Origin: Tubiluchus corallicola
Taxonomy: Eukaryota > Animalia > Priapulida
DNA: 64,000 nt
Direction: 5' to 3'
NCBI GenBank assembly: GCA_030141605.1
Contig: JAQGDQ010000830.1
Coordinates: 26,779-90,778 of the forward strand
Shown here: piece after piece, positions 31,040-64,000 of the stretch
Layout: each line of letters starts with the position of its first letter
Numbering within the stretch: position 1 is the stretch's first letter
Made by a program: the position numbers and the translations under genes
The notes under the pieces: generated by a model
The model's input: the letters and a program-made list of their open reading frames with translations, nothing else
What the model was told of the DNA's origin: nothing
Database searches by the model: none

Positions 31040-31622
31040 GGATAAGCTCGAAAGACATGATTTGTTTTAAATTTGATGGCAGGGTATTCCAAAGTTGAAC
31101 TCCTTGTTTAGTGATAGAATTGTTGCAGTATTTGTTATTAGTGCGTATTTGTTTAATATTGTGTGTTCTTGGATTTAATGTTGGCTCCAAGAGGAGTGGA
31201 AGCTTATTTTTGACGAAGTGCGTGTTAATATTGTTGATGCATTTCTATAAAAACAGGATTGTGTAGAAGTCTTTGTGTTCTTGTAAAATAGGGATTTTAA
31301 ACATTGTTCTTAATTCTGTTGCAGAGGTTTGATTTGTTATGAGGGACGTTTTATTTGAATAGCCAGCGACTAATCTTAATGCATAATTTTGAAGACTATT
31401 TAGTTTGTTATAGCTGTCTCTTGAAACTTCATAAAAAAGTGTGCATCCTTATAAAAAGTGCGGTGGAATGAGAGTTTTAAAAATTAATAACTTTGTTTGT
31501 TTAGTTAGTTGACCTTTTACCTGCCGTAAGTAAGTTGACCTTTTACCTGCCGGATTTACCGCATGCCATTTTATCGTAAATTTTATTAAAGTGGTTATCC
31601 CAAGAAAGTTTGTTATCTACTG
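31040..31622 (-). mobile_element. CR1/L2 ORF2 C-terminal fragment, cut by the assembly gap
   Basis: VDNKLSWDNH, FKTLIPPHF, KLNSLQNYALRL, GVQLWNTLP; same family as the 1-4 kb LINE. Confidence 0.8.
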
Positions 31623-31625
31623 NNN

Positions 31626-32599
31626 GACGCTCAGGCTTATTTTAGGCCAGGTTATGTAACTAGTTCCTACTGTTATAATTCCACCATTTATAAAAGAAGT
31701 TTAGTTAAGATGTTTAACGATATAATGACAGAAGCCAACCTGTTCTGAAATCAAATTTCACCTGTACATTCAATGATACTGTTTATGCATTACTTCTATA
31801 CCATGTGATTGAAGCCACGTAAACGAAATTTTGGCTGTTCAGTTCGCCCCGGGATTCCGCTTGAAGTTGTCGAGTTAAGCGGACGTTCACATGTCATAAA
31901 ATGATGGTTTAGTAGTAATAGTGCTTGCTTGTAGAAAAGCGATCTGTCTACCTGGTTACGACAGAGACGATAGTTGCATTCTAGCGATGATACTTACCTG
32001 TTGCTGATTATATTTTCCTGACGCTGATGATACATCACTTACCAGTTGTCGATCTACTGCTGATGGTACTTACCCGTATTTACCTGATACTGTCGTTGGT
32101 GCTTCCATGCTGTGATTGCGGAATTGGTGGTCCTTGCCTTGCGGCGAGTGCGGGAGCTTGGATGCAACCCTGTTTTGGCGTCGTGTAAGTGGAGGCGTGT
32201 GCATAGGGAGTCGTCGGGGTTTGGAGACGTCGTCGTCCACGTGGTCAGATCCATCAAGAGGTAGTGTAGTCAACCGTTCTATGGTGCACCATCCCTTGAT
32301 CAAGCCCCTGGTGAGGAGATGCCGCGGAATGGGAGCAGGAGAATAGTCACTTGATGATGCCAAGACAGGACTGGTGAAAACGTTACGTTGTTCTTTCTCT
32401 TCTTAGCCGGCTTAGTCTTTATTATTAACAGTTGTCTCGTAATGTGTTTTGAAACATTCATTAAATTGTTATATTATTTTATTAATTCAGTGGTTTCTTC
32501 TCAGTGTTTTCGACTAAGTGTTTTATTCTTTACCTAAGGGTTACACTTAAGTCACGAACCACATATTTACAATAACGGAACTTGGACTACATCGTCACA
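31626..32599 (+). repeat. 5' LTR (first TGT lost in the NNN gap)
   Basis: Direct repeat of 38617-39600; ends CGTCACA. Confidence 0.95.
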
Positions 32600-32602
32600 T
32601 TA

Positions 32603-32620
32603 TGGTGTCAGAAGTGGGAT
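32603..32620 (+). promoter_or_regulatory. Primer-binding site complementary to the tRNA-Leu 3' end
   Basis: TGGTGTCAGAAGTGGGAT, 3 nt after the LTR, is the reverse complement of ATCCCACTTCTGACACCA, the 3' end of animal tRNA-Leu (CAG/CAA type). Confidence 0.88.
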
Positions 32621-33161
32621 TTTTGACTTTATTTGGTGTAACTCGGTAGGAATAAAATTCTTTGTCAGCATTTTGAGAATTTAATGATATTTACTTTCAG
32701 GTAATTAGTTACATAGCTAATTTTCTGGGGGAATCTTTGGGCAAAAGCATATCGAAAGAACATAGCATCTTCCGTTGAGTGAATTTATTGATTACTCAGT
32801 TGAATGTGTTTTGTCCATGATTTAAATAGGCTTCCTGCAGATTTTGTAAACGCTATAATTCCAGGTGTATGCCGACTTGAATGCCGATTTGTCCTTGATT
32901 ACACTGTAGACGTTTCAAGTGCTAGTGAAACCGTTATTTTGTTGCAGGCTAGTCAAAAGTCTTGGCCTAGATTTTGTATATTCCTAGTTTGCTACTTTGT
33001 TTGATTTGCACTTACTTTACCCCTAATATACAGTATTTTTGTATGTCTGTATGCGCTGAGCCAGTGTGGGTCAGTTGAATGATAGATCTATAAATATTCT
33101 GCAAGCATAAAGTTTTTTTTTACTGTAACTACTATTTGTCCTATATTATCCTGTGATTAGA

Positions 33162-36100
33162 ATGTCACGCGTTTACGTGGAGAGTGAATTGCAGCAACTA
33201 ACTGTACCTGTCTTAAAGCAGATAACTGTTGAACGTAGGCTAACTTTACCACAGGGTACAAATAAGGCCGGAATAATTGATATAATCATGAATGCACAGG
33301 GTAACCCTGTGACGACAGGTGAACCTAGTGTTAGACCGAAAGAAGTTGGAGGTGTGTCAAGTACACCGAGTGTGTCTGTTGCGCAGATGAGTGGGCGCAG
33401 ACGTGTGTCTGATCAACTGTTAGCAACTCCCCCTCCTGCCGACCTTACCTTGCATTCTGCTATTAATGGTAAACCTGCGGATGATGAGATGACAGAACGT
33501 TCAGTACCTCTTTACAATATTGAAAAGTTAAAGTTAGTAGAGCGGCGAGAAAGAGCGTGAATGGGAACGGGAACAGAAACGTGAAGAAAGGCGTGAACGT
33601 ATGCAACGTGAAGAGAGAGAATGGGAACGTGAGCGTGAGGAACGCAGAGAACGAATGCAGAAAGAGCAGTATCAGTTTGAGTTGAAGCTTCGTGAGCTGG
33701 ATGCCTCATCTCCAAGTCACGTGACACAGGTTCCTCCTCAATCACCTGATGGCATACTTACTACAACCGCATCTCGAATACCCCGTGTAAAGTTATCACG
33801 TGTATTTACAGAGGAAACCGATGATCTGCATACTTTCTTACAGTGGTTTGAAGCAGTAGCCAAAGCTAATGGCCTTGAAGAGAAACACTTTGCTGCATCG
33901 CTGGGCCCAGCTTTATCCGGAAAAGCAGCCCAGGCTTTTCAACAAGTACCACTTGACAGCATGCAAGATTACAATGTTTTAAGGAAGACTTTGTTAGCTG
34001 CCTATGTCCTCTCCAGTGACATGTATCTTGAGCGTTTCCGCAAGATTACTCGGAGACCGGATGAAACATTCCGTCAGCTTTTTGTACGGCTTGATCGTGC
34101 CCTGCAAGAATGGCTGAAAGCCGAAGAAGCGTCCACCTTTGAGAACATTTGTGAACTGCTATGTATTGAGCAGGCCCTTACATTGATGCCCCGTGAAATG
34201 AGCATTTGGGTCAGGCAGCAAGGGCAAAAGACAATGGAAAAGGTGGCAGAGAAAGCCGATTTGTACATTGCTTCTAATGCATTAGGTACAGCTTCAAAAC
34301 TTAAACCAATGCAACAACAGCGTGGAAATTTTAGGCCGGCAGTTTTTTCAAATGGTTCTGGAAAAAAGATGAATAATGACGTCATGAAGAAGATACGCTG
34401 TAATACTTGCGGAGAACTTGGACACAAAAGGACCCAGCGCCCGAAACGCCCTAATTATGGTGAAACTAGTGGCAAGAGTAGAAATCCTAGTCGTCAATTC
34501 TTGGCCAAGACAGGAAATACTGGTCACCAATCCAGTCACTCTACCAGTTCACCTGCGGCTATGCCTGAGTGTGTGCATGAGTCTGATGAGTTTAGCTTTA
34601 AAGCTAAAATTAATGGTATCTGGATTGATGGTATAAGAGATTCTGGTGCTAGCGTGAGTTTGATCCAACCACGTTATGTCCGTCCAGAACAGTTTCTACA
34701 AAGTGAAAATTGTACCAAAATTTGGTGTGTGCATGGCGATGTTAAAAATACACGTGCGGCTGTTGTTGAGGTGGAATGTACACTAGTCAATGGTAGATTG
34801 AGAGTGGCAGTGTCTGATAGTCTTCCTGTGCCCTTTTTGCTAGGTAATGATTACCGAACTGCTGTGACACCATTTAGCATTAAACAGAGTTTTAGTACAC
34901 CACCTAAGTCAGTTGATTTAGAATGTATCACACCTGAAAATTCAGATACGTCACATTGTTCTGATGAACTTGTGAGTGGAAATATAAATGTCGCGAAACA
35001 AGCTGGTAATTCGAAAAAAGCTTTTGCTGTAACCCGATCAAAAGCAAAGCAGCTACAAGCAGAAGCTAACAGCGAGAAACAATTACTAAGTAGTTTAAAC
35101 GCTGATCAAAATGCGGAAAAAAATATTGCATCTGGCATAGCTACTAAAGCACAGCAACAGCAGCTGTTACAGCTTAGTAAAGAACAATTGCAGCAAGAAC
35201 AGCGCGATGATGTTAGTTTGCGCAATTTACGTGATCACGCAGTCACAGAAACAGTAGCTCATGCCCAAAGAAAGGGTTACTTCATTAAAGATGGGGTTTT
35301 ATATTACCTGACACGTGAAAAGCGCGATGCTGAACCCCGCGAACTTTTGGTTGTACCCAAGTCTAGACGTTTGGCAGTCTTATCTTTGGCACATGATGCG
35401 CACATGGCTGGTCACCTGGGCATACGTAAAACTACCCAACGTGTTTTACAAGAATGTATTTGGCCTAGAGTTAAACGTTCAGTGATACAATATTGCCGCT
35501 CGTGTGTCCCATGTCAGAAAACGGCGAGAATTAAACGTTCTGATAAAGCAAAATTAAAGCCATTGTCCATACCTTCGATTGCATTTCGAACTATAGCCAT
35601 GGATATTATTGGGCCTATGAAGAGAACACCCTCGGGGAATAAGTACACGTTAGTAATAATAGATCATGCTACGAGGTACCCCGATTGCTACCCGCTGCCA
35701 AATATTGAAACCACTACTGTTGTTAAAGCTTTATTGCAATACATATGTCGACATGGCATCCCGCGTGAGATTTTAACCGACATAGGTACTCAATTCACCT
35801 CGCAGTTGATCCATGATTTAGAACAGGCCTTGGGTGTAAAGGGAATTTTCACTTCCCCATATAGCCCACAGGGGAATGGGTTAACTGAGAGATTTAATGG
35901 CTCATTAAAATCCTGCATTTTAAAAGTCATGCAAAATGAGAAACATTTACCCTGGGATGAAACTATTCCGTTCATTTTATTTGCTTTCCGGGAAGTACCC
36001 CAAGAATCCACTGGGTATGCTCCATTTCAGCTAGTTTACGGTTTTCCCGTGCGTGGGCCTTTGGCTGCCCTAAAGGAACGTTGGGGCTCTGTAGAAGCTC

Positions 36101-38019
36101 CTAAGTGGGAGGAAATTGATGATTACGTGACTCGCATAATTAACACTGTAGAAGAGTCAACTGCTGATGCCCATGAAGCTTTGCAAAAAGCTAAAATATC
36201 ACAGAAAAAGTGGTATGATAAAACCACTTCAGAACGCTCGCTTGAAATAGGGCAAAAAGTTCTTGTTTTAATGCCTGAAGGTAAAAGCAAAATGCAAAAG
36301 CGCTATCGTGGCCCCTTTATAGTTGTTGATAAATTGTCTGATTGGACATATAAAATACATTTAGGAGGCAAAAGTGCACGCAAACGCGATACAAGAACAT
36401 ATCATATCAACATGTTGAAACCATTTGTTGAACGCGACGAGCACATGGCTTTGTTTGCAAAGTGTGAGGAATTTAGTACAACGTCACTAGACAGTGTTTT
36501 GTCTGAAGGTGGTTGTGGTGATGTGAAGATGGATGAGCAGGAGGAAAATGAGTGTTCATTGAAACTTCCTGAATATGCATTCCCGCCTTCTGCCTCACCC
36601 ACCCAGTCTCTCAATGATGTAGCATATGATTCTCATCTCAATGATGAACAGATCAGTGAGTTGGCAGCAGTACTTGCAGAATTTTCAGAGATGTTCACCG
36701 ATCTTCCCGGGTGCACTGAATTAGTTCAACATCGTATTACTCTAACAAATCCTACACCAGTTAGACAGAGGCCATACCGAACTCCTCATGCTCGCAGAGA
36801 GGTTATCAGAAAAGAATTAGAAGAGATGCAGAAATTACAAGTGATACGCAGATCTAATTCTGAATTTTCTTCACCAGTTGTCCTGGTACCAAAAGAAGAC
36901 GCTGCATCAGGTTTTCGTTTCTGTATAGATTATAGGCTTTTAAATGCTCAAACGGCTTTCAATCACTATATCATGCCTCGGGTAGATGACATCGTGGACG
37001 GCATGCATGGCGCTCTGTGGATAACCACATTAGACCTTTCAAAGGCGTACTGGCAAATAAAACTCGCCAAAGAATCCCAAGCATACTCTGCTTTCGTTAC
37101 AGAATTTGGAAAATTCGAATTCGTTGTGATGCCTTTTGGCCTTGTCAACAGTGCACAAACCTGTCAAAGTTTGGTAGACAGGGTGTTAGAAGCTGCAGAG
37201 GAATATGCCCACGGATACATTGATGATATCATGATTAAATCAAACACTTGGCAATCCCATCTGCAACATATTCGGTTGGTATTAGCCCTGCTACGACGTG
37301 CTGGTCTTACACTTAAACCAAAGAAGTGCAACTTCGCCCAAACTGAGACCAAATTTCTCGGATATGTTGTTGGAAAGAATCGCTTACGCCCACAGGTCGA
37401 GAAGATTCAAAAGATTCATGAAACCCCTCGTCCTCAGACCAAAAGACAAGTACGAGCTTTCCTCGGTTTAATCGGTTTTTATCGACGGTTTATTCCGATG
37501 TTTAGTTCTATTGCGGTACCCTTGTATGCACTGCTTGAGAAAAATGCATCTGTACACGTTGACTGGAATGAAGAGTGTGAACGCAGCTTTATAGAACTGC
37601 GCACTGCACTGAACTCAGACACGGTGCTTCACTCACCTGATTTTTCGCAGAAATTCGTTCTAACAACTGATGCTTCATTTAGTGGTATTGGTGGAGTGCT
37701 GACACAAGTACAGAGTGAGTTAGGTGAGGTGCCAATTACACATGTGAGCAGAAAGTTAACTACGTGTGAACGAAATTATAGTGTTGTGGAAATTGAGTTG
37801 TTGGCAGTAGTGTATTCTGTATCTAAGTTACGTTACTACTTAGAAGGTCATGAGTTCATAGTACGAACTGACCAACGTAGTTTGCTAGCACTCCCACGCA
37901 TGAAGAGAAATAATCGCCGCCTTTGTACATGGGCGCTTATTTTGCAAGAATTCCACTTTACTGTAGAGAATATTGCTGGAAAAGATAATATTGTAGCAGA
38001 TTCTCTTTCACGTCTATGA
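33162..38019 (+). CDS. Gag-Pol polyprotein with one apparent +1 frameshift at ~33545
   Basis: ATG 33162 MSRVYVESEL...; E/R coiled coil; capsid/SCAN-like region; degenerate knuckle CNTCGELGHKRTQR; protease DSGAS; integrase HHCC and D,D,E (MDIIGP, TDIGTQF, TERFN); RT (FCIDYR, LDLSKAYWQ, MPFGL, YIDD); RNaseH (TDAS, EIELLAV, TDQ, ADSLSR). Confidence 0.93.
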
Positions 38020-38613
38020 ATGGGTAATTCCAACCACTAAAGCCCAAGTTAGGTGATTAAAGATCACCTCTGACCAGTTTGAAACATTTTCTTTTACATT
38101 ATATGAAGCTAATTCATTAGAAATGAATTACAAATAATAAAATTTTGTTGCAAAATTAGTTTAATGTATTCGCAATGCCATCTAGGAGTGGTAATAGAAA
38201 ACATGATGTGTTGTTGTACTGTATTATTTTAATCTTGTTAGGCTGGTTAATAGTAAAGATGTTTCTCCTTTGTTTAAGACAAAACAGCGTTTTATTTTTA
38301 GTTTATTGATTTATTTTGAAACCGAGATTTGAACCTTGCGTTGTAAGCTTAAGAGTAAACAAATACTGTATTACCTGATATGTAATTATTTCATGAGTGA
38401 AGAAATTCACAAAGATTTGTTGAGGAAGACAATGATTGAGTATTGTATTTTTTGTCATTGACATTAGTTATTTTGGTCTATTATTGTGATGAATATGTAT
38501 CATGATTTTTTGTGTAACTAGTTTATTGCCCTGACCTATTGTGTTAAAAGTCTTGATATCACATTTTAGTAGTAAAAATTTGATGGATCAAGCTTTTGTA
38601 ACGGAGGATGCTA

Positions 38614-39600
38614 TGTGACGCTCAGGCTTATTTTAGGCCAGGTTATGTAACTAGTTCCTACTGTTATAATTCCACCATTTATAAAAGAAGTTTAGTTAAG
38701 ATGTTTAACGATATAATGACAGAAGCCAACCTGTTCTGAAATCAAATTTCACCTGTACATTCAATGATACTGTTTATGCATTACTTCTATACCATGTGAT
38801 TGAAGCCACGTAAACGAAATTTTGGCTGTTCAGTTCGCCCAGGTATTCCGCTTGAAGTTGTCGAGTTAAGCGGACGTTCACATGTCATAAAATGATGGTT
38901 TAGTAGTAATAGTGCTTGCTTGTAGAAAAGCGATCTGTCTACCTGGTTACGACAGAGACGATAGTTGCATTCTAGCGATGATACTTACCTGTTGCTGATT
39001 ATATTTTCCTGACGCTGATGATACATCACTTACCAGTTGTCGATCTACTGCTGATGGTACTTACCCGTATTTACCTGACTTTGATGATACTGTCGTTGGT
39101 GCTTCCATGCTGTGATTGCGGAATTGGTGGTCCTTGCCTTGCGGCGAGTGCGGGAGCTTGGATGCAACCCTGTTTTGGCGTCGTGTAAGTGGAGGCGTGT
39201 GCATAGGGAGTCGTCGGGGTTTGGAGACGTCGTCGTCCACGTGGTCAGATCCATCAAGAGGTGGTGTGGTCGGCCGTTCTGTGGTGCACCATCCCTCAAT
39301 CGGGCCCCTGGTGGTGAGATGGCGCGGAAGGTTAGCGGGAGAATGGTCGCTTGATGATGCCAAGACTGCACTGGTGAAAAACATTACGTTGTTCTTTCTC
39401 TTCTTAGCCGGCTTAGTCTTTATTATTAACAGTTGTCTCGTAATGTGTTTTGAAATATTCATTAAATTGTTATATTATTTTATTAATTCAGTGGTTTCTT
39501 CACAGTGTTTTCGACTAAGTGTTTTATTCTTTACCTAAGGGTTACACTTAAGTCACAAACCACATATTTACAATAACGGAACTTAGACTACATCGTCACA
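38614..39600 (+). repeat. 3' LTR
   Basis: TGTGACG...CGTCACA 7-bp terminal inverted repeat, preceded by a weak purine tract (AACGGAGGA). Confidence 0.96.
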
Positions 39601-39973
39601 GACGGGTTATGGAGAGGATTAGGGTAGAGATAGGGTTAGGGTTGTGGTTAGGGAAGGGTTATGGAGAGGATTAGGGTTGAGATAGGGTTAGGGTTAGGGT
39701 TGTGGTTAAGGTAAGGGTTATGGAGAGGATTAGGGTTGAGATAGGGTTAGGGTTAGGGTGTGGTTAGGGTAAGGGTTATGGAGAGGATTAGGGTTGAGAT
39801 AGGGTTAGGGTTAGGGTTGTGGTTAGGGTAAGGGTTATGGAGAGGATTAGGGTTGAGATAGGGTTAGGGTTGTGGTTAGGGACGGGTTATGGAGAGGATT
39901 AGGGTAGAGATAGGGTTAGGGTTGTGGTTAGGGAAGGGTTATGGAGAGGATTAGGGTAGAGATAGGGTTAGGG
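39601..39973 (+). repeat. Telomere-like (TTAGGG-containing) minisatellite, ~7 units of 52-59 bp
   Basis: Unit GGGTTATGGAGAGGATTAGGGTTGAGATAGGGTTAGGG(TTAGGG)TTGTGGTTAGGG. Confidence 0.92.
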
Positions 39974-40554
39974 TATTTAAATTGTGTTGGGAATTGTAAA
40001 CTCATTCTAATTATACGTTGCATATTCACATGTTACATTGTTGAATCTCTCCAACGGAAGGTTAAAGGTTTTACTTTCTTTCAAATGTGCCGTAGCCTGC
40101 TTAGAATAACCTAAATTCCTTTAAAAAGCTTAACGTCAACATCCAGAGCACCATCTAAATAACAATAATTATTGTAACTGAAATCGTAACAAGAAGTATT
40201 ATATTTAAAAAACGTAACGTAATTCATGTAAAAACCGAATTTCGGGAGGCGAATTATTCAGAGAAATTTAGTTGCAACTTTTCTTTAAATCGAATGTGAG
40301 GAAAGGAAGTTTTTCATTGTTCTTTTCACAGCAAGTCTTTTCATTTAACGCAAAATATGTTCTTTCCTACTGGTTTTGTCTTCTCAATAAACATTGTTCT
40401 CACTTGAAAGACAATGAGAATAGTCACAATATCTACTATTGTTTTCAACACGGCAGTAATTATCTAATTACTTGAACAGTTGCTGTTCTTTTAAATAGGT
40501 TTACAAGAAGTTTGTAAGCATCTTCGATGCAGCTTTCTTGATTTTAGTGTAGAG

Positions 40555-41149
40555 ATGAACAAGTTAACAGTTGTTTGTGCTTTAGCAGCGTTTATTCTTT
40601 GTTCATCACGAGAATGTCCCGATGACGTAATAAAAGTCAGTAAACGTGCAATTGCATGTGATTATGAAACAACGCGTTATGATTCTAACAAATGCGATGT
40701 TAATTGCAAGTTTATTTCTACTAGGCAAGATCTGGCAGAGATTGCTTCAAATCTAAGTGGAATCATTGATACACTAAATATTTTTGACTTTAAGGACACA
40801 GAATTGCCTGATGATTTCTTTAAAGGAAAAGAAGTTAAGTCTTTAAAGATAAGTTACTCTAATATAGAAACGTTAGGAGAAAATGCTATTGGTGGTGTAA
40901 CAAGAGAACAGCTAGCGTTTGAGTCGAACGAGAAGTTATCATCGATACATCCAAAGGCTTTTTACAAAGCTAAATTTTCTTCTCTTATCATAAGAGGAAG
41001 TTCAAGCTTGATAGGTGCACCAGAGTTCGACTTTTCCAATAACCCGAATTTTCAGTTCCTGAAGATATCCAGCAGTGGAATAGAAGGGCTGAAACCTCCA
41101 AAACTGCACAGGAGTGTTCTGATTAAAGACATTATGGTGAAATTAGAGG
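40555..41149 (+). CDS. LRR transmembrane protein, exon 1 (signal peptide, Cys-rich cap, LRRs)
   Basis: MNKLTVVCALAAFILCSS signal-like start; LRR-type segments (ELPDDFFKG, SLKISYSNIETLGENAIGG, LSSIHPKAF). Donor G|GTATGT after 41149, phase 1. Confidence 0.85.
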
Positions 41150-41574
41150 GTATGTACTATTTGAATATTATAGTTCTATATTAGTACTCACGGAACTAAT
41201 TAATTTAATTAAGTAATTGGAAACTCATGTGCAAGTTTTTCTAACTGTAGCATGGCACTGTTCTGTTCTATTTGATGAAGTTAGCATCTCCAGTTTGTGC
41301 ATTTGAAAGACATTAAAAAAGCCAGCTCTTGCGTGATTTTCACATAAGCGTTGAGAGATGCACCACTTCAATTTCAAGCTTGGATTGTGGTGTAAATTGC
41401 ATGGCAGTAAGTACTTGGTACCCGGGGGGGGGGGGGTTGCAGGAAGAAATAAAGAGTCCAAGGCAGGCAGGAGACCTTTGCATTACACGATTCTTCCAAT
41501 CAGTTCTTTCCCATAGTAACACGCTTGCATTCTTGACAGTGGTGTAAGCACAACCACATAGCGCCTAGTTCCAA

Positions 41575-42200: not shown

Positions 42201-42868
42201 TAACAAGAGGACGGTTTCACAAAGCTGTCACTAGGTTAACAATGTCGTTATTACATTCACTTAACCATTAATAAGAACGTCGTTGAGTTGGAGACGGCTA
42301 TGTGAAACTGGGCCCAGGATTCAGTTGCTTCCACAGTCAGATTCAGATTCAGGCTTATTTTATTTTCCTTACATACATATATATATATATATATCACATA
42401 TATATTCACATTTATAGTTGCATCAAAAACATGCATAATTGTAATAAACAAAAATAAAAGGAAATGCTAAATTCTGCAAAAAGCAAAACAAAACAAAAAC
42501 AAACAATATACAATTCTAGCACAGATTCATGAAATATACTGGATTCTGCCAATCAAGGATGCTATAATTTTACAATTTTAGCTAAAATTTTCATTAAAAA
42601 ACTAAATAAAAATAAAAAATCGGCAGCACAGCAAAACCAACTATCAAATGAATGATGAAATATCATACTTTGATGATGAATAATTTTACAGCTGTTTTTG
42701 TTATTTTTGTACATGCATCAATGAGAAAGAGAATCAAAATCACATAATTTTCACAATGTAAATTATAAAATTTTCCATCATTATTTTCATCACTTAAATT
42801 TCCAAACATCCAATTTAGGTGCTAAACAGACGCAGCGTTTTTTCTTTAACATTTTCCTTAATTTTCAG

Positions 42869-43317
42869 CAAATCCCAGACTGAGTTGTGACTGCGATTCT
42901 GTGTGGGTTAAAACTTGGACAAACAAGGACAGTTTAGTTGACTGTGGTTCGACATTCATTGCAAATGCTCAGTTCAAAGATTTCCGCTGCGCCCACCCTC
43001 CAACGCCGCCATCAATAACAACAACAACAACAACTACGAAGTCAGCATTCATTCTAGGAAGAGTGAGCGCTACAGCAAGCATAGCCATTGAAGCTGTCGA
43101 ATTTGCAGCTACGGCGAGTATCAGCGTGTCCACCAGTATGGTCATCGTCTCCATCGGCGTCGGCACTGGTTTGATATTGTTGATTTTGGGGGCTACATTA
43201 TTGGTCATTAAAATGAGGGAGAGAAATGAGAGACCGGCACAAGTTGCAACTTCAATGACGTGGAGTTCAGAAGTTTCTGAATCTTCTAGATCTAGTAAAG
43301 CCAGTAGCTCAGTGTAA
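42869..43317 (+). CDS. LRR transmembrane protein, exon 2 (LRRCT, Thr/Ser stalk, TM helix, short Ser-rich tail)
   Basis: Acceptor TTTTCAG|CA, phase 1 matching exon 1; the join reads KLEANPRLSCDCDSVWV. TM VIVSIGVGTGLILLILGATLLVI. Total 347 aa. Confidence 0.87.
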
Positions 43318-46747: not shown

Positions 46748-47080
46748 TTAAGCATCAGCTGGTTTATCATCAACTGGGTCAACATCGAGATGTGAAGCTT
46801 GTGGTTGTGCCGTAACTTCTTCTGTTCCATTCTGCTGTTCTCCAGTTGCATTATCATGTGATCTTTTTCGAACAACAATAAAACAGCATACAAGTGTAAT
46901 AATTATCAGTATTGTTGCAACGACTCCAGTTATAACCCCAATTTTCCAAACTGCCATATGCGTCTCAGGTGTTTCTGTTGCTGTTGTCTTTTCTGTCAAT
47001 GTTGTTGTTGTTGTCTTTTCTGTCAATGTTGTTGTTGTTGTCTTTTCTGTCAATGTTGTTGTTGTTGTCTTTTCTGTCAA

Positions 47081-47119
<39 letters not shown>

Positions 47120-47271
47120 CATCGTCGTAGGTGGTGAATCGCAATCAAAATCAGCAAGTGCAGCATGACGGATATTTGTGGGCCATGTACAGTCAACTAT
47201 GGTATCATCATTGTTCGTCCATGGCGGCATAACAATCCAGACCAAGTCGCAGTCACATCTCAGGTCGTTTG
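46748..47271 (-). CDS. Terminal exon of a paralogous LRR-TM gene (LRRCT, poly-Thr stalk, TM, acidic tail)
   Basis: Acceptor CTTTTAG|CA AAC GAC CTG AGA TGT GAC TGC GAC (NDLRCDCDLVW), with the same phase and position as exon 2 of the + gene. TM IGVITGVVATILIIITLVCCFIVV followed by RKR. No intact upstream exon was found. Confidence 0.82.
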
Positions 47272-47717
47272 CTAAAAGTTGAAAGAAAAACGTTCAAAAA
47301 TCGAGGCTAAATTTACATTGTACTTTGTGAATCTACAATAAACTTTACCTACATAGCAACGAGTAGTATATAAAACAATTAGTAAAAAAGAATTTGAAAT
47401 AATTGCAAATAGAAACCATGCAATCATGACGCAATCACACAGATTGGCATTTTTCTCATTTTCAGAAATTAGTGTCAAATTTGATCGGCTAAATACGGAG
47501 ATTTAGCTTTTCATTTGGAAACAGAGTTGGAATGAGTGTATGAATGGAAACAAGCACTAATATTGATGGCATCGTGTTGGCATATGTTGAGAAAGTGATG
47601 AAATTGAATTGGGAAACTGCTTTTGGAACGGGAATGCCTTATAATCAAATACAAAGTGGAGTGTTAGCTACTTGGCTAATGTCATTTGTAGTTGTTTAGC
47701 CAGTGTGTCAGTATTAT

Positions 47718-58444: not shown

Positions 58445-59239
58445 TGCAAGCAACAATTTATGTAGTTGCAAGCAACAATTTATGTAGATGCAAGCAACAA
58501 TTTATGTAGTTGCCATGTCATGCTTATTTTATTAAAATATTGTGCAGCGGTGTATGCATTCTATTTACCGTGGCTATTATAATCGTGTTTTGTGTTGTTT
58601 TGTGTTGTTTTGTGTTGCTTTGTGTTGTTTTGTGTTGTCATAGTGAAATAAACAAGGTGTAAATAAGTCGAATAAATTACAGTAAACAGCTGAAATATTT
58701 CTATTCTTTGCTCTATTCATTTACCTCAATTATTTTACAAAAAGGATCCGCCCCGCGTCTTAGCAACGCCCCGTTGCAGCTTCCGAAGCGAACTCAGCGT
58801 CTGCATCTTATTAATTCAGGGCGTGATAACATCTCCTGCGCTGATTGGACAACAAACAAACAAGGAAAGATCCTAGGGAGAGATCCCGCTGACATCACAA
58901 CATCATCACATTTTTGTATCCGTACGTTAGGACCTGTATTTGTTGATATTTACGTCGTTAGCTTTGTTTACCACGCTGCTCATCACCTCGTATGTGTAAA
59001 CAATAATTTGATTCATAATAATTACAGTGGCAGCCATCTTGGAAATATTCTCTGCAGAAAAGTAATAATAACGTGATTTCAATTCAATTCAAGATTCGTT
59101 TATTCCACTTAATACCACACATCACAGAGTCAATGTTACAGTTCGAAATAATTTAGTTTACAATTCAACAATTATTTAAAGGAGTATAGAAGACATGATG
59201 ATGTTTCATATACTATCCCATTTTCAAGTCCGATAAAAA
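58445..59239 (+). repeat. Left arm of a ~0.8-kb near-perfect inverted repeat
   Basis: Reverse complement of 62895-~63706; the 122-aa ORF is identical in both arms. Confidence 0.95.
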
Positions 59240-62894: not shown

Positions 62895-64000
62895 TTTTTA
62901 TCGGACTTGAAAATGGGATAGTATATGAAAAATCATCATGTCTTCTATACTCCTTTAAATAATTGTTGAATTGTAAACTAAATTATTTCGAACTGTAACA
63001 TTGACTCTGTGATGTGTGGTATTAAGTGGAATAAACGAATCTTGAATTGAATTGAAATCACGTTATTATTACTTTTCTGCAGAGAATATTTCCAAGATGG
63101 CTGCCACTGTAATTATTATGAATCAAATTATTGTTTACACATACGAGGTGATGAGCAGCGTGGTAAACAAAGCTAACGACGTAAATATCAACAAATACAG
63201 GTCCTAACGTACGGATACAAAAATGTGATGATGTTGTGATGTCAGCGGGATCTCTCCCTAGGATCTTTCCTTGTTTGTTTGTTGTCCAATCAGCGCAGGA
63301 GATGTTATCACGCCCTGAATTAATAAGATGCAGACGCTGAGTTCGCTTCGGAAGCTGCAACGGGGCGTTGCTAAGACGCGGGGCGGATCCTTTTTGTAAA
63401 ATAATTGAGGTAAATGAATAGAGCAAAGAATAGAAATATTTCAGCTGTTTACTGTAATTTATTCGACTTATTTACACCTTGTTTATTTCACTATGACAAC
63501 ACAAAACAACACAAAGCAACACAAAACAACACAAAACAACACAAAACAACACAAAACAACACAAAACACGATTATAATAGCCACGGTAAATAGAATGCAT
63601 ACACCGCTGCACAATATTTTAATAAAATAAGCATGATATGGCAACTACATAAATTGTTGCTTGCATCTACATAAATTGTTGCTTGCAACTACATAAATTG
63701 TTGCTTGCAACTACATAAATTGTTGCTTGCAACTACATAAATTGTTGCTTGCAACTACATAAATTTTTGCTTGCAACTACATAAATTGTTGCTTGCAACT
63801 ACATAAATTGTTGCTTGCATCTACATAAATTGTTGCTTGCAACTACATAAATTGTTGCTTGCAACTACATAAATTGTTGCTTGCAACTACATAAATTGTT
63901 GCTTGCATCTACATAAATTGTTGCTTGCAACTACATAAATTGTTGCTTGCAACTACATAAATTGTTGCTTGCATCTACATAAATTGTTGCTTGCAACTAC
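62895..64000 (-). repeat. Right arm of the inverted repeat, ending in an expanded 22-bp tandem array that runs off the window
   Basis: Unit TTGCAACTACATAAATTGTTGC, about 16 copies from 63641 to the window end versus 3 copies in the left arm. Confidence 0.95.

What the first reader, a model, noticed from the sequence alone, without database searches (positions are those of the whole stretch)
32251..32385. Directional A/G hypermutated patch inside an LTR hairpin: possible editing scar (ADAR or cytidine deaminase) in an invertebrate retrotransposon
Seen: I count ~7 substitutions and 2 indels between the LTRs over ~860 bp outside this patch, but 20 substitutions within 107 bp (32263-32369 vs 39263-39369). 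Eleven of them are A in the 5' LTR and G in the 3' LTR, with only one in the opposite direction. The patch coincides with a fold-back: CATCAAG/CTTGATG closes it, and 39271-39280 CGGCCGTTCT pairs with 39340-39349 AGAATGGTCG. In the 5' copy three of these G-C pairs are A.C mismatches. Known: ADAR prefers UAG contexts and A opposite C in dsRNA (three sites are TAG; only one has a 5' G), while APOBEC-type deaminases give GG>AG (7 of 11 sites; TGG>TAG at 32344-32346). Inference: a localized editing event fixed by reverse transcription, or a hypervariable structured LTR module swapped between subfamilies. LTRs are normally identical at insertion, so gene conversion, template switching or a chimeric assembly next to the gap is also needed to explain the difference.
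Basis: partly seen in the sequence, partly recalled or inferred. Interest (0 to 1): 0.8.

Follow-up and report, generated by a model that had tools for sequence, protein, structure and literature searches.

The report
Editing-scarred retrotransposon subfamily, hybrid LTR
The two end repeats of this jumping gene differ because they come from two co-existing subfamilies, and the rarer subfamily carries a one-strand run of A-to-G changes that was likely left by the RNA-editing enzyme ADAR and then likely spread to several inherited copies.

Summary
The counts hold: 20 substitutions in 107 bp against 7 elsewhere, 11 of them A(5')/G(3'). The patch did not arise in this copy. Public contigs from two studies hold both versions as separate high-depth haplotypes. 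The 3' version is a minority subfamily (B). Both LTRs are B-type upstream; the 5' LTR switches to the majority type at 32245-32262, so it is a hybrid.

Three differences are CpG-decay forms outside B. Ten A/G sites are B-specific, and more distant relatives lack B's G, so the direction is A>G and APOBEC is unlikely. B reads G at 10 of 21 A's and C at 0 of 18 T's, and avoids a 5' G (1 of 10 against 7 of 11, p=0.024). The skew extends upstream to about 39118.

No RNA was testable.

Best reading: an ADAR scar fixed in a Gmr1-like gypsy LTR lineage that then amplified (about 0.6). Such scars are known in retroviral U3, and this scan noted them before in LINE, SINE and Penelope copies of other genomes.

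The parts
31623..31625 (.). NNN gap where the first three bases of the 5' LTR would stand; it makes the target-site duplication untestable
31626..32599 (+). 5' LTR, a hybrid: minority (B) type up to 32244, majority type from 32263
32245..32262 (+). Switch interval between the last B-diagnostic site and the first majority-type site; inferred to be the U3/R boundary (untested)
   Evidence: rows 32243, 32244, 32263; depth arithmetic
32263..32369 (+).
32169..32369 (+). Predicted domain of about 200 nt closed by a 16-bp helix (32169-32184 with 32354-32369, 3 G-U pairs); candidate double-stranded substrate
   Evidence: 3 of 300 shuffles of the module and 4 of 40 shuffles of the whole LTR reach 16 bp
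32603..32620 (+). Primer-binding-site-like stretch beginning TGG, three bases after the LTR end; the tRNA was not identified
   Evidence: sequence
33129..33560 (+). Short upstream gag-region ORF without a Pfam hit; its frame differs from that of the long ORF
33541..38019 (+). 1492-aa ORF: SCAN, integrase (zinc finger, core, C-terminal), then RT and RNase H; this is the Gmr1-like order
38614..39600 (+). 3' LTR (TG...CA), B-type throughout where testable
39118..39345 (+). A>G-skewed module of subfamily B: 17 tabulated sites, with more suggested by loose ends
39604..39974 (+). 52-bp TTAGGG-like tandem array that begins right at the 3' junction and has no counterpart on the left flank

Best explanation
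This Gmr1-like gypsy retrotransposon has a hybrid 5' LTR that exposes the difference between two co-existing LTR subfamilies, and the minority subfamily (B) carries a sense-strand A-to-G run that ADAR likely wrote into the element's RNA before reverse transcription likely fixed it in a founder that then amplified. For steps 3-4 I give about 0.45, against 0.3 for a conversion tract in the 5' LTR and 0.25 for other routes.
For: The 3'-type patch is one unbranched contig: X1 139 bp at depth 1535, where low-depth pieces lie at 83-212; X3 (another sample and study) 278 bp at depth 320, beside a 5'-type contig at depth 403. At 32302, 32303, 32314 and 32337 a single contig per run carries G, which is 5% (X1) and 17% (X3) of the depth at 32302. 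G at 39121, 39130 and 39136 has depth 51.3-51.4 in X2 and 16.9 in X4, matching B's depth (57.5; 17.9-22.6), and G at 32243/32244 in X3 equals B's 319.7 exactly. Contigs only about 80-87% alike (X1 record 2, X3 records 11 and 15) add no depth to the G rows at 32263, 32273 or 32337. 10 of 21 A's change against 0 of 18 T's (p=6e-4). A 5' G stands before 1 of 10 changed and 7 of 11 unchanged A's (p=0.024), a 5' T before 4 of 10 and 0 of 11 (p=0.035); the extended set gives 1 of 17 against 16 of 33 (p=0.004). Of the 29 variant rows, 16 are purine transitions and 1 a pyrimidine transition (p=3.5e-4). Depletion of upstream G is the pan-metazoan ADAR motif (PMC5625713, passages). Conversion of nearly 50% of A's is described for RAV-1 and avian leukosis virus (PMC12925331, passages).
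Against: Six B-specific transversions lie in 32315-32369, and ADAR cannot make them. The local hairpin is no more stable than shuffles, changed A's are predicted paired less often than unchanged ones (0.36 against 0.59), and no inverted partner longer than 12 nt exists in the window. The reverse (G>A) reading gives a borderline GG context, 7 of 10 against 7 of 25 (p=0.053). The 3' neighbours are G 6 and A 2 of 10, whereas invertebrate hyper-editing favours a 3' A. The samples are small, about ten tests were run without correction, and the extended test is biased: the upstream site list is incomplete (45 rows hidden) and neighbours are read from B-type sequence. Haplotype linkage rests on depth arithmetic, not on full-length copies, and the tool warns that depth is no copy number. 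In X1, 503 of the 3484 G depth at 32243 is not assigned to the two B contigs.
Confidence: 0.6

Rival explanations
1. No editing: B's module is a fast-evolving promoter or RNA-structure segment that diverged gradually, or was imported from a diverged sister family, and purine changes were kept because G can still pair with U or C.
For: Six B-specific transversions sit in the same tract. The two types use alternative pairing partners for 32274-32280. The 3' fold is about 9 kcal/mol more stable.
Against: There are 0 B-specific C/T changes against 10 A/G. The 5'-G avoidance is not predicted by selection on pairing. The extra stability is no more than the base composition gives (z -0.56). The unbranched 278-bp contig in X3 shows no B module in other flanks.
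Confidence: 0.2
2. A burst of reverse-transcriptase misincorporation (for example dG opposite T during plus-strand synthesis under skewed dNTP pools) made the A>G run without a deaminase; the mechanism is recalled, not tested.
For: It would be strand-specific and local, and could make transversions in the same pass.
Against: It does not predict 5'-G avoidance with 5'-T preference or a conversion rate near 50%.
Confidence: 0.1
3. An APOBEC-type cytidine deaminase changed G to A on the line leading to the 5' (majority) type, and B is the ancestral form.
For: The GG context holds at 7 of 10 sites against 7 of 25 (p=0.053).
Against: The A state is the majority and is shared by more distant relatives, which fails the consensus filter of PMC4866542. 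That screen found no such editing in 19 invertebrate genomes (passages; its supplementary note was not read). A TAG>TGG change yields GG contexts as a by-product.
Confidence: 0.05
4. The hybrid 5' LTR, or the pairing of these two LTRs, is an assembly or gap-filling artefact. This concerns only the chimera and is compatible with an ADAR origin of B.
For: The NNN gap lies exactly at the LTR start, no target-site duplication is visible, and a satellite stands on one flank only. In X3 no laid contig joins B-type 32243/32244 to the majority patch. Chimeric assembly of LTR elements is a recognised problem (PMC7251063, passage).
Against: The switch lies in an 18-bp window inside the most diverged module, too short for a k-mer join. 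The majority-type part carries copy-specific CpG-decay forms, not majority letters. The upstream part differs from the 3' LTR by 2 substitutions and a 9-bp indel, so it is not a plain copy.
Confidence: 0.25
5. One LTR of this very insertion was hypermutated at or after insertion (the literal first reading).
For: BLV proviruses with A>G clusters reported in the 3' LTR give a precedent for clusters seen in single proviruses (PMC8025556, passages).
Against: Both forms are high-depth haplotypes in two studies.
Confidence: 0.03

Closest known systems
ADAR-type A>G hypermutation in retroviral LTRs: RAV-1 U3 and avian leukosis virus (Felder 1994, Hajjar and Linial 1995, seen only as described in PMC12925331, passages); BLV 3' LTR U3 (PMC8025556, passages)
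   Same: A short, sense-strand A>G cluster inside the LTR, about half of the A's changed, fixed in DNA by reverse transcription.
   Different: Those are sporadic proviruses of exogenous vertebrate retroviruses. Here the scar marks an inherited gypsy-retrotransposon subfamily present at high depth in two samples, it is mixed with six transversions, and it is exposed by a hybrid LTR.
APOBEC 'DNA editing' fossils in vertebrate LTR elements (PMC4866542, passages)
   Same: Clustered, strand-biased purine transitions between copies, polarised against the family.
   Different: The direction is opposite (A>G, not G>A) and the context is ADAR-like. That screen kept only G>A and reported none in invertebrates.
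Gmr1-like Ty3/gypsy retrotransposons (PMC3587641, PMC8220671, PMC4131045, passages)
   Same: Integrase upstream of RT, a SCAN domain, TG...CA LTRs and a primer-binding-site-like stretch.
   Different: RT/RNase H is at most 49% identical to any listed protein, so this is a new family member. No tree was built.
Non-identical LTRs through gene conversion, ectopic recombination or chimeric assembly (PMC7251063, passages)
   Same: LTR divergence that does not measure age; intact-looking elements without a target-site duplication.
   Different: The switch is mapped to 18 bp inside the most diverged module, which suits a strand-transfer origin better than a homologous crossover at that spot (inference).

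Membership tests
Gmr1-like Ty3/gypsy | Integrase upstream of RT in a gypsy-type Pol | tested here: met
   rve at residues 684-776, RVT_1 at 1116-1276, RNase H at 1342-1471; feature from PMC3587641
Gmr1-like Ty3/gypsy | SCAN domain (over half of frog Gmr elements, PMC4131045) | tested here: met
   PF02023 E=2e-14
Gmr1-like Ty3/gypsy | Placement in the Gmr1 clade on an RT tree | not tested
   only a similarity list: the most identical hits, 45-49%, include SCAN-bearing proteins of amphioxus, fish and sponge
Single intact LTR insertion | Target-site duplication on both flanks | tested here: inconclusive
   no match is visible, but NNN hides the left junction
ADAR hyper-editing footprint | Strand-specific excess of A>G over T>C | tested here: met
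   10 of 21 A's against 0 of 18 T's, p=6e-4; 16 against 1 transition rows
ADAR hyper-editing footprint | Direction A to G relative to the family | tested here: met
   G is confined to minority contigs and more distant relatives lack it; indirect, no rooted tree
ADAR hyper-editing footprint | Depletion of G immediately 5' of changed A | tested here: met
   1 of 10 against 7 of 11, p=0.024; extended 1 of 17 against 16 of 33, p=0.004 with stated bias; motif from PMC5625713
ADAR hyper-editing footprint | Cluster free of other substitution types | tested here: not met
   six B-specific transversions in 32315-32369; this lowers 'one pure editing event', not 'contains an editing scar'
ADAR hyper-editing footprint | Double-stranded RNA substrate | tested here: inconclusive
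   local hairpin not significant; 16-bp closing helix 3 of 300 shuffles in the module, 4 of 40 over the LTR; no long inverted partner in the window
ADAR hyper-editing footprint | A-to-I editing of these sites in RNA, dependent on ADAR | not testable with these tools
   needs stranded RNA reads with matched DNA
APOBEC DNA editing (PMC4866542 criteria) | G is the family state and the A-bearing copy is the derived one | tested here: not met
   A is the majority state at all 10 B-specific sites
APOBEC DNA editing (PMC4866542 criteria) | Deaminase dinucleotide context (GG or GA) | tested here: inconclusive
   GG 7 of 10 against 7 of 25, p=0.053; GG plus GA p=0.29

The most novel reading that the evidence does not exclude
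ADAR hyper-editing founded a transposition-competent gypsy subfamily: one edited RNA rewrote about 230 nt of the LTR's promoter/R region, created new motifs (such as an E-box palindrome at 32237-32244), and the edited LTR went on to amplify and to recombine with unedited relatives at the U3/R boundary. RNA editing would then be a source of heritable regulatory change in LTRs, not only a restriction mechanism.
Probability: 0.3. Interest if true: 0.75.

Novelty: new variant of a known kind. Interest (0 to 1): 0.5.

Why it matters
ADAR-type scars in LTRs are documented for sporadic retroviral proviruses, and the one genome-wide screen I read looked only for G>A. An A>G scar that defines an amplified, inherited LTR-retrotransposon subfamily would show that edited LTR RNA can stay mobile, and would give an easy genome-scale test: screen LTR families for A>G-derived subfamilies with 5'-G depletion. 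The hybrid LTR also predicts the transcription start to within 18 bp. It is a caution for LTR dating too: about 3% LTR divergence here reflects subfamily mixing, while the unmixed 637 bp differ by 0.3%. Four literature searches listed no paper whose title or abstract start reports this for an LTR retrotransposon; the library lacks most subscription papers, I read passages only, and I opened no supplements (the invertebrate note of PMC4866542 and the BLV figure of PMC8025556 may bear on this).

Tried and rejected
No whole genome is held for this window, so full-length copies could not be aligned. Rfam over 31400-39900 gave 2 matches at E 3.5 and 4.6, both outside the LTRs: no ribozyme or known RNA family. 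No further LTR copy lies in the window. The metagenome pattern scan returned 120 loci, 0 of 120 similar to the LTR by blastn. Exact-pattern scans of genome contigs and viral contigs found 0. No RNA holder was listed; runs X5 and X6 laid 0 contigs; neither is evidence on expression. Sliding 200-nt folds showed no window of either LTR with unusual stability (9 windows each, z from -0.34 to +1.86 against mononucleotide shuffles). Rejected: CpG decay as the cause of the whole skew (3 of 10 sites against 3 of 25, p=0.32; it does explain 32297, 32349 and 39298); GC-biased conversion (no T>C partner changes, and three B-specific G>T); my first idea that the 3' LTR was the chimera (note), which the depth arithmetic reversed. 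Dropped before the context counts: 32349, 32297 and 39298, because they are not B-specific. Dropping 32314 as a possible slippage product gives 0 of 9 against 7 of 11 (p=0.005), but that is post hoc and not relied on. The host taxon was not determined. A look-up of earlier findings by sequence found nothing.

Full report
The element. The patch lies in the LTRs of a 8-kb retrotransposon (31626-39600). The long ORF (33541-38019) has SCAN, integrase, RT and RNase H in that order. Integrase upstream of RT defines Gmr1-like gypsy elements (PMC3587641 and PMC8220671, passages), and SCAN is common in them (PMC4131045, passages). The most identical listed proteins reach 45-49% and come from amphioxus, fish, sponge and unnamed assemblies. 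No tree was built and the host taxon was not determined. The 5' LTR begins at an NNN gap, the 3' LTR runs into a TTAGGG-like array, and no target-site duplication is visible.

The observation. Alignment gives 27 substitutions, 20 of them in 32263-32369 (11 A/G, 1 G/A, 1 T/C, 7 transversions) and 7 outside, with two indels (p=6e-15). Outside the patch, 2 lie in the 637 bp upstream and 5 in the 230 bp downstream (p=0.016). The fold-back exists but is no more stable than shuffles (z -0.41 and -0.56).

Both versions are family haplotypes. No genome is held, so I laid public contigs: X1-X4 on 38900-39800 and X1, X3, X5, X6 on 32195-32410. X1, X2 and X4 are one sample; X3 is another sample and study; X5 and X6 laid nothing. 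The 3'-type patch is one unbranched contig in X1 (139 bp, depth 1535; low-depth pieces lie at 83-212) and in X3 (278 bp, depth 320). X3 also has a 5'-type contig at depth 403. At 32302, 32303, 32314, 32315, 32322, 32330, 32332, 32333 and 32337 the 3' letter is on one contig per run. At 32263, 32272, 32273, 32281, 32345 and 32369 it is on one contig in X3 and 2-5 in X1; at 32268 on 2 and 11. It makes up 5% (X1) and 17% (X3) of the depth at 32302. I call this minority type B. Depth is not a copy number, but several copies are implied. Three differences are not B-specific and sit at CpG: 32349 and 39298 were seen in no laid contig, and T at 32297 is minor (C holds 91% in X1). Site 32367 is a common polymorphism. 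That leaves 10 A/G sites and 6 transversions. Four of the downstream differences (39377, 39383, 39502, 39557) are family polymorphisms too.

The 5' LTR is the hybrid. Upstream of the patch both LTRs share G at 39118, 39121, 39129, 39130, 39136, 39243 and 39244, where many contigs have A. In X2 the G depth at 39121, 39130 and 39136 is 51.3-51.4, against 57.5 for B in the patch; in X4 it is 16.9 against 17.9-22.6; in X3 the G depth at 32243 is exactly B's 319.7; in X1 two B contigs give 2981 of 3484. Both LTRs are therefore B-type upstream, and the 5' LTR turns to the majority type between 32244 and 32263. The patch is the exposed right part of a B-versus-majority module of about 230 nt. Loose ends, compared by eye, agree. 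One contig behind 39112 differs at 6 of 28 letters, all A against the window's G. Two contigs before 32231 show five such differences besides one C/T, at least two transversions and a 3-base gap. One search hid 45 variant rows, so the upstream list is incomplete.

Direction. Contigs about 80-87% alike (X1 record 2, X3 records 11 and 15) add no depth to the G rows at 32263, 32273 or 32337. Six loose ends behind 32292, which differ from the 5' type by C/T changes, a transversion and an insertion, have A at 32302, 32303 and 32314. Site 32268 is ambiguous. The A state is thus both the majority state and shared with distant relatives, so the change is A>G in B. This fails the consensus filter for APOBEC editing of PMC4866542 (passages), which also found no G>A editing in 19 invertebrates.

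Signature. In 32263-32348, 10 of 21 A's read G in B and 0 of 18 T's read C as a B-specific change (p=6e-4). A 5' G precedes 1 of 10 changed and 7 of 11 unchanged A's (p=0.024); a 5' T precedes 4 of 10 and 0 of 11 (p=0.035). Adding the seven upstream sites gives 1 of 17 against 16 of 33 (p=0.004), a test biased as noted above. Of all 29 variant rows, 16 are purine and 1 a pyrimidine transition (p=3.5e-4). Upstream-G depletion is shared by ADARs across animals (PMC5625713, passages). Against this reading: the 3' neighbours (G 6, A 2) do not follow the invertebrate 3'-A preference of that paper; the reverse GG context is borderline (p=0.053); the tests are small and uncorrected; and six transversions need another cause. 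Sites 32314-32315 could be one slippage between triplets, and 32330-32333 one local event (inference).

Substrate. In the 106-nt fold, changed A's are paired less often than unchanged ones (0.36 against 0.59), and the window has no inverted partner longer than 12 nt. A 16-bp helix (32169-32184 with 32354-32369) closes a domain of about 200 nt; 3 of 300 shuffles of the module and 4 of 40 of the whole LTR reach that length. The 5' domain folds at z -1.57 and the 3' domain at +0.13. An antisense transcript is the other candidate: four donor-like sites lie on the minus strand just left of the module. Neither is shown, and RNA could not be tested.

Mechanism. Shown: two haplotype classes, the hybrid 5' LTR, the direction (indirectly), the strand bias and the 5'-neighbour bias. 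Inferred: ADAR edited LTR RNA, RT fixed inosine as G, and the founder amplified. Also inferred: the hybrid arose at minus-strand transfer between co-packaged RNAs, because the switch lies in an 18-bp window inside the most diverged module, where homologous crossover or a k-mer join is unlikely and where a U3/R boundary is plausible (a poly(A)-like hexamer lies at 39461). Such a transfer gives two equal LTRs, so a second step, crossover or mis-join with a pure-B insertion, is needed, and the unmatched flanks fit it. Conversion of the 5' LTR and an assembly artefact remain open (PMC7251063, passages). If U3 and R edits came from one event, strong-stop DNA must have jumped early (recalled mechanism); otherwise there were at least two rounds.

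Comparison and verdict. The closest cases are ADAR-type A>G clusters in RAV-1 and avian leukosis virus (as described in PMC12925331) and in the BLV 3' LTR (PMC8025556; the lead came from earlier finding e1-8615262). This scan has noted similar scars in LINE, SINE and Penelope copies of other genomes (unchecked AI notes, not used as support). What differs here is an LTR retrotransposon, a scar that marks an amplified subfamily, and a mapped hybrid LTR. Searches listed no report of that, within the library's limits. It is a new variant of a known kind, with interest 0.5.

Noticed in passing
window 38983-39077 (and 31992-32074), minus strand: Four splice-donor-like sites (8 or 9 of 9 matches to the recalled consensus) within about 90 bp on the antisense strand of the 3' LTR and none on the sense strand (three exact GGTAAGT per LTR). 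They lie in an imperfect repeat just left of the A>G module and could end an antisense exon that would pair with the sense RNA. No significance test was done for the cluster.
   Followed up: partly
window 32281-32292 and 39282-39291: A palindrome is kept in both LTR types (12 nt in the majority type, 10 nt in B). It resembles retroviral RNA dimerisation signals (recalled).
   Followed up: no
window 32237-32244 and 39237-39244: B's G pair at 32243/32244 completes an 8-bp palindrome that contains a canonical E-box (motif name recalled); most other copies have AA there.
   Followed up: no
window 39604-39974: A 52-bp TTAGGG-like tandem array starts at the 3' LTR junction; related arrays have high depth in the runs.
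   Followed up: partly
window 33541-33560: The upstream gag-region ORF and the long ORF overlap in different frames; whether this is a break or recoding was not examined.
   Followed up: no
window 32292-32345: A low-depth relative skips 52 bases of the patch in both X1 and X3 (joints), so the region also varies in length within the family.
   Followed up: no
window 40495-41184, 42862-43317 and 46748-47293 (minus): ORF pieces that look like leucine-rich-repeat transmembrane proteins with Thr-rich stalks, beside long tandem arrays (by eye, not searched).
   Followed up: no
window 58445-59239 and 62895-63709: An inverted pair of about 800 bp at 97% identity.
   Followed up: no
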